Positions 2,208 through 5,200 are shown, counted from the whole stretch's first letter. The stretch is DNA of 63,027 nt, filler included, from Kipferlia bialata (GCA_003568945.1; 5 parts of 5 records of this genome joined end to end with filler, not necessarily neighbours in it), one strand, 5' to 3'. Notes: generated by a model from the letters alone, not told the origin. A program made the numbers and translations.

Positions 2208-5200
2208 TATACCTGTGAATAGGCCTGTACACATCCAGTGATGCCAGCATCTCTCTGTTGGCTGAGCACATCTCTGTGATGGAGTATCTGGTCAGGGGGA
2301 CAGCGCGGTGGGACACGTGGGTGTCATTCATCCTGAGGTGAACATGTAGTATGTGGATAACCCATATATTAGGAGAGCAAGAGTCGTAACAATTGGCTGC
2401 GTGGGTAATATGCACTCTATAAGATGAAAGAGAGATACGTTGATATATATACGTACACATACATATCTATACGCATAATATACACACCTAGCTGCACACA
2501 GGACTGCCGGGTTGAGGGGGGCATGGACCAGACTGCCATTCTGGGGTGAGGGACATAGCATATACAGTGGGACTGAAGATAGATATGTATGAAAATGACT
2601 CCTGGTACCTCCAATAGTAGTGGTACACTCCTCAGGTGCTCCTGCATGTGGCAGACATGGGTGGGCAGTGGATGGGGCACAGCACCAGCCAGCTCCATGT
2701 GTCTTCTGGTATGTGCCACAACATCCATCTGGTAGAAACACGTCTCCTCTGACATCAGTGTTAACAGCAGACAAGTGGTGTATACTAACACGATCTGTGT
2801 CAAGTTTATATCCCCACCTTCTGTGGTTCTCTGTCCCATGTGTGTGTCCGGACTGTCCATGTCGTCTCCATGGTGTGACACTGTGGGGCACATGTCGATG
2901 GCCTGCTCCTGAAGCTCAGTCTCCTCGTCCTTCTCATCGCCTGGGGGTAAGCACAGAATATATACACATACATACATATATATATATCTTCTATATGTAT
3001 AGTGAAGAGCTCCTGCAGCTCAGTCTCCTCATCCTTCTCATCACCTGGGTAAATTATGGATTGGGACACATGGATATACATAACACACTATCGATATAGT
3101 GAAATTCGTTCTGTTGAACTGGATACTCTGTACCTAGACATGATCTGAACACCGCTGACACCATGCCCCTCTTCAGTTATCCACACATATACTACTATAT
3201 ATATAGGGAGAGAGGTCATATCTACATGTATATACACACCCATCATACCTAGGCATGATCTGAAGACTGCTGACACCATGCCCCTCTTCAGCTCGGGGGG
3301 GCAGAAGGGGGACTCGACGGCCCTGGGGGGTTATTGTATACATGTAGAGAGAGTGAGAGAATACATACGAATACACATAATTAACAGTATACACAATTGT
3401 ATATATATAGGGGGGCAGAAGGGGGACTCCACGGCCCTGGGGGGGTTAACGTATATATATACATATAGAGAGAGAGGCTAAATATAGGGAAGGGAGGGCA
3501 GAAGGGGGACTCCACGGCCCTGGGATTAGTATATATATATACATAGAGAGAGAGTCTGAATACACGAAATGTAAATGTAGGGAGGCAGAAGGGGGACTCC
3601 ACGGCCCTAGGATTAATGTATATATATATAGAGAGAGAGGCTGAATACACGAATATGTAAATATATGGTGGCTGAAGGGGGACTCGACGGCCCTGGGGTA
3701 AGAGATGTTATATCTCAGATATATCACCATCTATACTTGTACATATGTATGGGTAAGCCAAAATCAATACATATCTATACATGCCTCGTAGCAGTCTGCA
3801 CCACCTCCACATCAATCAGTGGCAGTGGTATATACATATATATATATATATATATTTATATCTGTCTATCTAGGTACCTTGTTGCAGTCTGTACCACTTC
3901 CACATCGATCAGTGGCAGGTGGGTGTCCATCAACAGCTCAGTGATGGTGGGGCGCTTCTTGGGGTCCTCGTGGGTACACCTGGAGGGTCAATCGCGTAGT
4001 ATATATATCATGTCTTGTAGGTCTATATACCGCGTAGTTTGGTGCCACTCACCACTTGATGAGGTATGCCTGGCTGGGACAGTTGTTCTCAAACTCCTCA
4101 GGCAGGGTGTGGGATATCCTGAGGTATTAGTGCCAATAGCATAATGTATATCAATATATCAATGTACACATAATGTAAAGTCAGTATCAGTATATCCACC
4201 CCAATGATCATCACTCTGTTACCTGAGGTTCTCGGGGACATTGACCCTGTGCATACATTTTGATATATACTAATACATAACATATATATATATACTAAAT
4301 GTTGATCTTACATCCTACTGTACCTGAGGTTCTCGAGGACATTGACCCGGTGCATGTAGGTGGAGAACTGGGGGTGAGGCAAATACAAGATCACAAACTA
4401 TACTCATAATAAGTGTCAGTATACACAGAATATGCTGCACCCACCATGTACCACACTTCCAGGAAGATGATCCCAAGGTAAGGATACATACTAATGTACA
4501 TATATATATTCGAGTACATTCATATATGGCAATATGTATATAAAATAACGAGTATTAGACACTGTACTCACCATGTACCACACTTCCAGGAAGATGATGA
4601 TATATATATTCGAGTATATTCATATATAGCAATATGTATATATAATAACGAGTATTAGACACTGCACCCACCATGTACCACACTTCCAGGAAGATGATTC
4701 CAAGGTAACGATACATGCTAATGTACATATATATGTTGAAGTAGGAAAAATAATATATATACTGATACAGAATGAGTATTGACACTGCACTCATCATATA
4801 TATATAGTATACATACAGTACACAGTATATACATGGTATATATATGATATATGATGGTATATACATGATATATATATGCTGCACCCACCATGTACCACAC
4901 TTCCAGGAAGATGATCCCCAGTGCGTAGATGTCGACCTTCCCGTCATAGGTGCCTGGACGTCAGAGAATTGGAAGAGAGAGTAGGAGTATATTGAATATG
5001 CAATGATCTGTGATAAATATCTAGTTTTCCATATATACTAATAGTGTATATCTTCCATAGTAAATACACGTACCCGTGTTGGTCCCTCCCTGTAGCTCAG
5101 GTGCCATGTAGGCCACAGTGCCTGGGGTGAGGTATGATATATAGAGTCACATAGGATTGGGAAAATGTTGTATGTATCATTATAGATGTATTACCTACAC

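What the first reader, a model, noticed from the sequence alone, without database searches (positions are those of the whole stretch)
3785..3918. Echo differs from the working exon only at synonymous sites (5 of 5)
Working exon end: CTG CCA CTG ATC GAT GTG GAA GTG GTA CAG ACT GCA ACA AG|GT. Echo (3785-3825): CTG CCA CTG ATT GAT GTG GAG GTG GTG CAG ACT GCT ACG AG|GC. All five exonic differences are silent third-position changes. A neutrally decaying copy should hit all codon positions, so the echo's lineage was under protein-level selection. It may have come from a divergent allele or paralogue by unequal crossover, may once have been an alternatively used exon, or may still contribute to mRNA.
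Basis: seen in the sequence. Interest (0 to 1): 0.8.

Follow-up and report, generated by a model that had tools for sequence, protein, structure and literature searches.

The report
Intron echoes preserving former gene versions
In two genes of the free-living protist Kipferlia bialata, over half of the introns hold short copies of the neighbouring exon ends that differ from the working exon mostly at silent codon positions; the copies checked against RNA are spliced out, and they are likely leftovers of other once-working alleles brought in by recombination, which would make one genome a record of genetic exchange in a lineage where sex is unproven.

Summary
Observation confirmed. The 41-nt echo (3785-3825, minus strand) differs from the tail of exon 38 of a GCN2-like kinase gene of Kipferlia bialata at five synonymous third positions, and its donor is GC. 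It is real single-copy DNA, and the spliced RNA contig skips it. Alone, 5 of 5 is weak: P=0.022 under the proper null, dN/dS 0.5 for a dead versus a working copy. Pooled it is strong. There are 91 echo segments in 45 of 82 introns of two genes. One echo per junction gives pN/pS 0.18 (bootstrap 0.11-0.29, P=1e-9), and 9 of 18 multi-hit codons stay synonymous. Yet the echoes look dead today: 5 of 7 indels frameshift, 2 stops, GC donors. Best reading (0.6, inferred): fossils of other functional alleles, captured or left by recombination between divergent homologues. Main rival (0.2): indirect selection through conversion or collapse into the exon. The structure is known (amphioxus 'mirages'); I found no paper reporting the codon bias, and the original mirage paper was not readable. 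This scan noted similar synonymous-biased copies in sea urchins, an annelid and a mould. No second Kipferlia strain was found to test it.

The parts
396..15323 (-). G1: KIPB_003615, eIF2-alpha kinase (GCN2-like), 49 exons, partial; echoes in 27 of 48 introns
3878..3979 (-). working exon 38; its tail 3918-3878 is the echoed part
   Evidence: in the spliced RNA contig with 0 other letters
3323..3877 (-). intron 38, 555 nt, GT..AG, holding one donor echo and four acceptor echoes
   Evidence: skipped by the RNA contig
3826..3877 (-). 52-nt spacer: working GT donor, then a TA run ending just before the echo
3785..3825 (-). the donor echo: 41 nt, 5 synonymous differences, followed by GC
   Evidence: DNA depth 404 over 3645-3823
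3693..3784 (-). inner 'ghost intron', 92 nt, GC..AG, between the donor echo and the first acceptor echo; ordinary intron size
   Evidence: median inner length 93, echo-free introns 115.5
3667..3692 (-). acceptor echo 1 of the start of exon 39 (2 non-synonymous differences)
3410..3606 (-). acceptor echoes 2-4 (3606-3580, 3519-3492, 3436-3410), each after its own AG; related spacers, period about 86; all share a synonymous GTC/GTG difference from the exon
3249..3322 (-). working exon 39
14174..14473 (-). G1 intron 4 array: exon tail plus two echoes; the two spacers differ at 2 of 62 sites while the tails carry three different Leu codons and a Ser AGC/TCT switch (ambiguous mosaic case)
19270..30735 (-). 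G2: LCAT/PDAT-like acyltransferase, 35 exons (predicted model, not RNA-checked here); echoes in 18 of 34 introns with the same bias

Best explanation
The echo is one of many short copies of exon ends that lie inside introns and, where checked, are spliced out; they are likely dead remnants of other, once-working alleles, left by recombination between divergent homologous chromosomes. Shown: a duplication that spans one splice junction leaves one complete exon plus a copy of its end, with a splice signal, in the intron; exon and copy differ as two coding sequences do (dS 0.24, dN 0.039); the copies now also carry frameshifts, stops and GC donors. Inferred: breaks in the TA-rich introns are repaired on a homologue whose intron no longer matches. 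The broken end then re-enters by short homology inside the exon, or an unequal crossover joins echo to exon, so an exon tail plus intron of allele B ends up behind the exon of allele A. Short allelic conversions of the exon alone would add to this. Each echo thus starts with allele-level differences already filtered by selection and then decays neutrally. This needs silent-site diversity of roughly 0.15-0.2 among lineages, and exchange between them (sex, parasex or past hybridisation).
For: Pooled, de-duplicated: 124 of 196 differences codon-synonymous, 130 at position 3; pN/pS 0.17-0.22 for kappa 1-4; P 1.8e-8 to 4.6e-14 against the 0.5 null; holds in each gene, on both donor and acceptor sides, and without the focal echo (119 of 191); shifted frames give 24 and 19 of 196. 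One echo per junction (54): 97 S, 53 N, ratio 0.18, bootstrap 0.11-0.29. Simulated dead copies run through the same detector give a synonymous share of 0.36 +/- 0.04, at most 0.46 in 200 runs, against 0.63-0.65 observed. 9 of 18 multi-hit codons are synonymous (Leu, Arg and Ser family switches), 1.6-3% expected. The silent rate is equal on the working side (0.084) and the echo side (0.077), while echo-side N is 0.023, so the working exon is not simply evolving faster. Not a CpG effect (13 of 118; ratio 0.20 without such sites). Echo splice signals differ from the working ones at 3.1 of 8 and 6.9 of 14 sites yet score near them (4.5 vs 6.1; 6.7 vs 9.8; random change -1.5 and -4.6). Dead now: 5 of 7 indels frameshift; 2 stops vs 2.9 expected; GC donors in 4 of 32 vs 0 of 82 working introns (P=0.005, or 0.019 counting a related pair once); recent echo-echo duplicates 4 S: 7 N, compatible with neutrality. 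Far ends of echoes abut dinucleotide runs in 37 of 89 vs 25% background (P=0.0005), and echoes occur only in the two TA-rich contigs. K. bialata has Spo11, Dmc1, Msh4, Mus81 and PolQ rows in Supplementary Data 2 of PMC8516963; fornicates lack Rad51A and NHEJ (section 8); Dmc1 tolerates mismatches (PMC6719624 passages). Read by eye in the amphioxus BflGb6 alignment (PMC3087553 supplement 4): the two working alleles differ at five synonymous codons, and each of the five is also found in a mirage copy.
Against: No second allele was seen. The strain shows no exon variants over 2300-5400 in DNA or RNA contigs (where contigs drop minor variants), and no other strain turned up, so the required diversity of about 0.2 is unmeasured and high. 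Echo-private differences (28 S: 26 N, ratio 0.30) beat neutrality (P=1.6e-5) but beat the 0.5 null only marginally (P=0.046), and conversion from exon to a sister echo could blur 'private'. The N share is lower near the junction (ratios 0.13, 0.17, 0.33, 0.22; Fisher P=0.076), the direction the collapse model predicts. Echo divergence does not correlate with flank relatedness (rho -0.09). The dispersion test does not separate one fixed divergence from spread ages (index 1.29). Amino-acid changes are only marginally conservative (P=0.052), and the kinase lobes are not significantly more filtered than the rest (P=0.26). The breakpoint mechanism is inferred. Only two genes were measured, and G2 is a predicted model.
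Confidence: 0.6

Rival explanations
1. Echoes arise as same-chromosome tandem duplications and stay under indirect selection, because they are often converted into, or collapse onto, the working exon. Lineages whose echo carries a harmful amino-acid change then lose fitness. No divergent alleles are needed.
For: Arrays of up to five copies with related spacers show unequal exchange or slippage. Mild gradient of fewer N changes near the junction (P=0.076). Most echoes keep GT or AG (28 of 34; 38 of 45). Amphioxus mirages are length-unstable (PMC3087553 passages), and the sharing of variants between exon alleles and copies there fits this as well.
Against: Frameshifts (5 of 7 indels), stops (2 vs 2.9 expected) and GC donors are not purged. 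Recent echo-echo pairs look neutral (4 S: 7 N, small n). Silent divergence does not rise with distance from the exon (0.22, 0.20, 0.12). It needs exchange rate x selection x population size above 1 (inference). Conversion without such selection would give a ratio of 0.5-1 (my reasoning).
Confidence: 0.2
2. Echoes are translated in minor isoforms (alternative donors, or swapped exon ends), so ordinary purifying selection acts on them.
For: The focal echo has one possible in-frame swap point: GT in the exon at 3897, with AG at the matching echo position. Its offset of 93 is a multiple of three. Assembled contigs hide rare isoforms.
Against: The RNA contig skips the echo, with depth 0 in its bin. 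Read-through hits a stop. Only 4 of 34 donor echoes have a swap point, and 4 of 25 in-frame offsets are open. Offsets mod 3 are 26/23/40. Frameshifts and stops are present.
Confidence: 0.06
3. Plain dead tandem duplicates; the silent excess comes from the working exon drifting, from mutation bias, or from how echoes were detected.
For: This predicts a silent excess by itself (dN/dS 0.5) and can produce a single 5 of 5 case (P=0.022 each, about 90 echoes). It explains the dead features directly.
Against: The pooled ratio 0.18 (0.11-0.29) excludes 0.5; the simulation with the same detector never exceeds 0.46; silent rates are equal on both sides, and there is no CpG or GC-direction bias (56 vs 55); synonymous multi-hit codons are 9 of 18.
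Confidence: 0.05
4. The assembly interleaves two haplotypes or strains, or the echoes come from a paralogous gene.
For: Short-read assembly; offsets of about 100 nt; contigs break at the TA run between exon 38 and its echo. Haplotype mixing would give exactly this codon bias.
Against: Echo and exon have the same depth as unique DNA (404, 390, 372-445). Single contigs with 0 other letters hold an exon together with its echo (3874-4464; 3002-3441) and run past the truncated end of an acceptor echo (3645-3823). No exon variants are listed, and there is one RNA form. One protein per gene.
Confidence: 0.05

Closest known systems
Amphioxus 'mirages' (tandem duplications spanning an exon-intron boundary; Adh3, globins BflGb6/BflGb9, troponin C, PGBD5). 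Seen: passages of PMC3087553 and its supplement 4, one passage of PMC3902484. The original paper (Canestro et al. 2002, PMC117041) was not held.
   Same: The unit spans a donor or an acceptor; most copies keep GT or AG; splicing is undisturbed; copy number varies (1-5 here). By eye, BflGb6 copies D3-D5 differ from the haplotype 1 exon at six synonymous codons before the ragged end.
   Different: Here they occur in 45 of 82 introns of two genes of a metamonad protist. The intron part is mostly unalignable (13 of 79 exon-echo pairs have related flanks), whereas it aligns well in BflGb6. The strain shows one haplotype. The main text of PMC3087553 has 0 occurrences of 'synonymous' or 'gene conversion'.
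Intron gain by tandem duplication of an exonic AGGT segment (Rogers model; Gao and Lynch 2009). Seen as a citation and discussion in PMC3087553 and in search listings only.
   Same: Short internal tandem duplication involving splice signals.
   Different: That model makes a new intron out of exon sequence, with the acceptor-side copy first. Here donor echoes always precede acceptor echoes (0 violations in 13 introns), each echo carries an intronic flank, and an existing intron is lengthened (median 279 and 250 nt with echoes vs 129 and 92 without).
Tandem exon duplication with mutually exclusive splicing (recalled, not read)
   Same: A neighbouring copy that differs mainly at silent sites.
   Different: The echoes are partial (14-58 nt), have one splice site only, are absent from the RNA contig, and carry frameshifts.
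Silent conversion cassettes such as trypanosome VSG, Borrelia vls or chicken Ig pseudogenes (recalled; one search listing)
   Same: Unexpressed copies with a coding-type substitution pattern owing to exchange with the expressed gene.
   Different: These are housekeeping genes, the protein is kept rather than diversified, and there is no sign of a programmed system.

Membership tests
mirage (exon-intron boundary tandem repeat) | repeat unit spans an exon-intron boundary, 5' or 3' | tested here: met
   39 donor-side and 52 acceptor-side segments; 79 of 89 end within 8 nt of the junction (34 + 45)
mirage (exon-intron boundary tandem repeat) | many but not all copies keep GT/AG | tested here: met
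   GT in 28 of 34, AG in 38 of 45
mirage (exon-intron boundary tandem repeat) | mRNA splicing not disturbed | tested here: met
   over 2300-5400 only: one RNA contig, nine CT..AC joints matching the model, echoes skipped; rare isoforms would not show
mirage (exon-intron boundary tandem repeat) | minisatellite-like units alike over exon and intron parts (81-100% in BflGb6) | tested here: inconclusive
   true for some arrays (periods 86-120, 87-94% matches), but 66 of 79 exon-echo pairs, including the focal echo, have unrelated flanks
mirage (exon-intron boundary tandem repeat) | copy number differs between haplotypes; somatic instability | not testable with these tools
   one strain, contigs only
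Rogers-type intron gain by tandem duplication | intron consists of duplicated exon sequence, acceptor-side copy before donor-side copy | tested here: not met
   0 of 13 introns with both kinds show that order
alternatively used duplicate exon | copy has both splice sites, an open frame and appears in mRNA | tested here: not met
allele fossil left by inter-homologue recombination | dN/dS between copy and exon below the dead-copy null of 0.5 | tested here: met
   0.18, bootstrap 0.11-0.29
allele fossil left by inter-homologue recombination | copy-specific silent variants occur in working exons of other alleles | not testable with these tools
   no second Kipferlia strain found; seen by eye only in amphioxus
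GCN2 kinase (gene G1) | eIF2-alpha kinase domain plus RWD and HisRS-like domains | tested here: inconclusive
   Pfam finds only kinase families in the partial protein; most named top hits are GCN2, with PKR among them

The most novel reading that the evidence does not exclude
Kipferlia's TA-rich introns grow as palimpsests: each repair of a break on a divergent homologue leaves the exon end and intron of another working allele behind. Thousands of introns in one homozygous genome would then store a sample of past alleles, enough to measure silent diversity (about 0.2) and show genetic exchange in a free-living fornicate without a second isolate. The same reading would apply to mirages in hyper-polymorphic animals.
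Probability: 0.45. Interest if true: 0.8.

Novelty: new variant of a known kind. Interest (0 to 1): 0.62.

Why it matters
Unspliced intronic copies should not remember the genetic code, yet these do, in more than half of the introns of two genes. If they are allele fossils, a single public genome with 124,912 introns (PMC5874029) makes two open questions directly testable: whether free-living relatives of Giardia exchange genes between divergent lineages, and how intron length and splice-site sequence turn over in a lineage without NHEJ and Rad51A. If instead the echoes are selected as recurring conversion donors, this would be an unusually clear case of second-order selection on non-expressed DNA. 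It also warns annotators that such copies are decoy splice sites that can mislead gene models.

Tried and rejected
No whole genome was held for the window, so the test covers two genes of the window, not the genome. Reads were laid on 2300-5400 only; exons outside it rest on the annotated proteins. The subset 'introns 32-42' (17 of 26 synonymous, P=0.012) includes intron 32, whose upstream exon lies outside the laid stretch. One search showed 16 of 64 pieces, 8 of 33 loose ends and 12 of 26 indel rows; both runs are contigs of at most one sample, and X2 is RNA by guess plus its spliced joints. Searches for another strain found nothing: metagenome scans with P0001 (37 pattern matches, 0 confirmed) and with the hydrogenase exon (29, 0); homologue search (best non-self hits 29-43% identical among 120 listed); cluster look-up (1 member each). 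Rows dropped: 1 low-complexity segment (92 to 91), then 2 segments at G2 introns 1-2 where the predicted first exons may themselves be echoes (89, onward). I first read the G1 intron 4 case (flanks 2 of 62 different, tails 8 of 16 silent sites; P=2e-5; one search used a miscounted table) as proof of a conversion patch. I downgraded it, because a recent duplication of spacer plus echo followed by one complex mutation also fits. The dispersion test (fixed divergence vs exponential ages) was inconclusive. Base-triplet stepping by Dmc1 as a source of 3-nt periodicity was rejected: its phase is unrelated to codons (reasoning), and two-fold third positions show 39 transitions to 14 transversions, against 26 to 38 at four-fold sites. 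Paper searches for this phenomenon: Kipferlia+intron (33 papers, 20 listed, none on it by title or abstract start), partial exon duplication, Kipferlia+meiotic+Spo11 (0), one-sided invasion (1, unrelated), and five-term (0). The genome paper PMC5874029 (sections 7 and 12 read, term search) has 0 occurrences of 'duplicat', 'synonymous', 'heterozyg' or 'ploidy'. Most subscription papers are outside the library. The amphioxus alignment was read by eye, not computed.

Full report
Source and gene. An exon downstream of the finding matches, at 100%, KIPB_003615 of Kipferlia bialata, a free-living fornicate; the protein's contig is 15,402 nt, which is window 1-15402. The window is several contigs joined by spacers. 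An exact spliced alignment of the 1343-aa protein gives 49 exons on the minus strand, all introns GT..AG. Pfam finds only kinase families, and most named relatives are GCN2. The second contig holds an LCAT/PDAT-like gene of 35 exons.

The observation. The tail of exon 38 (3918-3878) recurs 93 nt downstream (3825-3785) with five differences, all third-position and synonymous, and the donor reads GC instead of GT. Both encode the same 13 residues. The 555-nt intron is built as: working donor and 52 nt, donor echo, a 92-nt GC..AG inner intron, then four copies of the acceptor plus the first 26-28 nt of exon 39. In public runs of one sample, a spliced RNA contig has nine CT..AC joints matching the model, carries the working exon with no other letters, and passes from 3877 to 3321 without the echo. 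DNA contigs cover the echo at depth 404, against 372-445 for unique DNA, and other single contigs hold exons together with their echoes. So the echo is real, single-copy, and not in the main mRNA. Limits: contigs hide rare forms, and none listed crosses the TA run between exon 38 and this echo.

Is it more than chance? After a duplication the working copy still changes at silent sites, so a dead copy gives about 0.5. Under that null the focal 5 of 5 has P=0.022, unremarkable among about 90 echoes. The pooled test decides. Of 92 segments found, 91 were kept, in 27 of 48 and 18 of 34 introns. After removing duplicate variants, 130 of 196 differences are at position 3 and 124 are codon-synonymous; pN/pS is 0.17-0.22 and P is 1.8e-8 to 4.6e-14 against 0.5. 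It holds per gene, per side and without the focal echo, and vanishes in shifted frames. One echo per junction gives 97 S, 53 N, dS 0.24, dN 0.039, ratio 0.18 (0.11-0.29). Simulated dead copies passed through the same detector reach at most 0.46 synonymous, against 0.63-0.65 observed. The filter is at protein level: 9 of 18 multi-hit codons keep the amino acid through Leu, Arg or Ser family switches, against 1.6-3% expected. CpG does not explain it, nor GC direction. Where several echoes polarise the changes, silent rates are 0.084 on the working side and 0.077 on the echo side, with N rates of 0.004 and 0.023, so the echo side itself is filtered. Echo splice signals differ widely from the working ones yet remain valid-looking.

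But the echoes look dead now. Five of seven indels shift the frame. There are two stops against 2.9 expected. GC donors appear in 4 of 32 echoes and 0 of 82 working introns. Offsets are not biased to multiples of three, and 4 of 25 in-frame offsets are open; the focal read-through stops. Recent echo-echo duplicates with related flanks show 4 S: 7 N, compatible with neutral decay (P=0.27), though n is small.

Mechanism. Within one clonal lineage only one copy is constrained at a time, so the ratio cannot fall below 0.5, and conversion between copies without selection gives 0.5-1 (my reasoning). Two ways remain. (A) The echo and the exon come from different working alleles. A break in a TA-rich intron is repaired on a homologue with a non-matching intron, re-entering within the exon; or echo and exon cross over unequally; or the exon alone is converted. 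The captured end is then filtered at birth and decays later. This accounts for both the silent bias and the dead features, for the different-but-valid splice signals, for the ordinary-sized inner intron (median 93 nt), and for the link to dinucleotide runs: 37 of 89 far ends against 25% background, and 54 and 36 repeat pairs in the two contigs with 81 and 70 TA runs against 0, 0, 2 and 1 (none an echo) in the four contigs with 0-5 runs. The organism has Spo11, Dmc1, Msh4, Mus81 and PolQ, but no Hop1 row (PMC8516963 Supplementary Data 2, rows seen). Fornicates lack Rad51A and metamonads lack NHEJ (section 8 read), and Dmc1 stabilises mismatched joints (PMC6719624 passages). (B) Echoes are indirectly selected because they keep being converted into, or collapsing onto, the exon. 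A weak junction-ward gradient points this way (P=0.076), but unpurged frameshifts, stops and GC donors point away. I give A 0.6 and B 0.2; they are not exclusive. Against A: no second allele or strain was found; the diversity needed is high; the private-change test beats the 0.5 null only at P=0.046; and the dispersion and flank tests were uninformative.

Comparison with what is known. A note from this scan led me to amphioxus 'mirages', tandem duplications spanning exon-intron boundaries that keep splice signals and do not disturb splicing (PMC3087553 and PMC3902484, passages). The Kipferlia echoes meet three defining features, meet the minisatellite-like identity only in part (66 of 79 exon-echo flanks are unrelated), and could not be tested for instability. 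In the BflGb6 alignment (supplement 4, read by eye) copies D3-D5 differ from the haplotype 1 exon at six synonymous codons, the two working alleles differ at five, and each of those five also occurs in a mirage copy. That is what A predicts, and it also fits B. The main text of that paper never uses 'synonymous' or 'gene conversion'. The original mirage paper could not be read; it may discuss this. Rogers-type intron gain and alternative exon duplication fail their tests. The genome paper does not mention duplications of this kind, and PMC6679479 (passages) deals only with the spliceosome.

Verdict. The structure is a new variant of a known kind. The density, the host, and the measured coding-type divergence of dead copies were not found in print in my ten searches. 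Interest 0.62.

Noticed in passing
window 15589-18726 (+): Gene with one short intron and high GC: a GltD/dihydropyrimidine-dehydrogenase-like flavoprotein part (Fer4_20, Pyr_redox_2) fused to 4Fe-4S clusters and an [FeFe]-hydrogenase large and small subunit; likely an NAD(P)H-linked hydrogenase. No close metagenome relative.
   Followed up: partly
window 1-30896 versus 30997-63027: Two kinds of contig: TA-run-rich, 43-48% GC, tiny exons (median 76-78 nt) and many echoes, versus 53-57% GC with almost no TA runs and no echoes. Suggests two genomic compartments.
   Followed up: partly
window 396-30735, working introns: All 82 modelled introns are GT..AG; acceptors mostly carry a branch-like CTNAC/TTAAC close to a C-rich CCCAG, recalling the fused branch point and acceptor of diplomonads (recalled).
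   Followed up: no
window 30350-30750 (-): The predicted first exons of G2 (25 and 17 nt) lie in an array of related copies and may themselves be echoes; the true start may lie beyond the contig end.
   Followed up: no
window 7960-8337 (-): Three donor echoes of exon 23 around a 25-N gap; two end in GC and may partly be an assembly repeat.
   Followed up: no
window 36165-42510 (+): By eye, a SNF2-family helicase gene (SWR1-like motifs, recalled) with short introns and no echoes.
   Followed up: no
window 57030-58030 (-): By eye, the end of a protein-kinase gene of the STE/MAPKKK type (recalled motifs), with one possible short donor duplication near 57280-57350.
   Followed up: no
window 48900-49530 (-): By eye, a short-chain dehydrogenase gene.
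   Followed up: no
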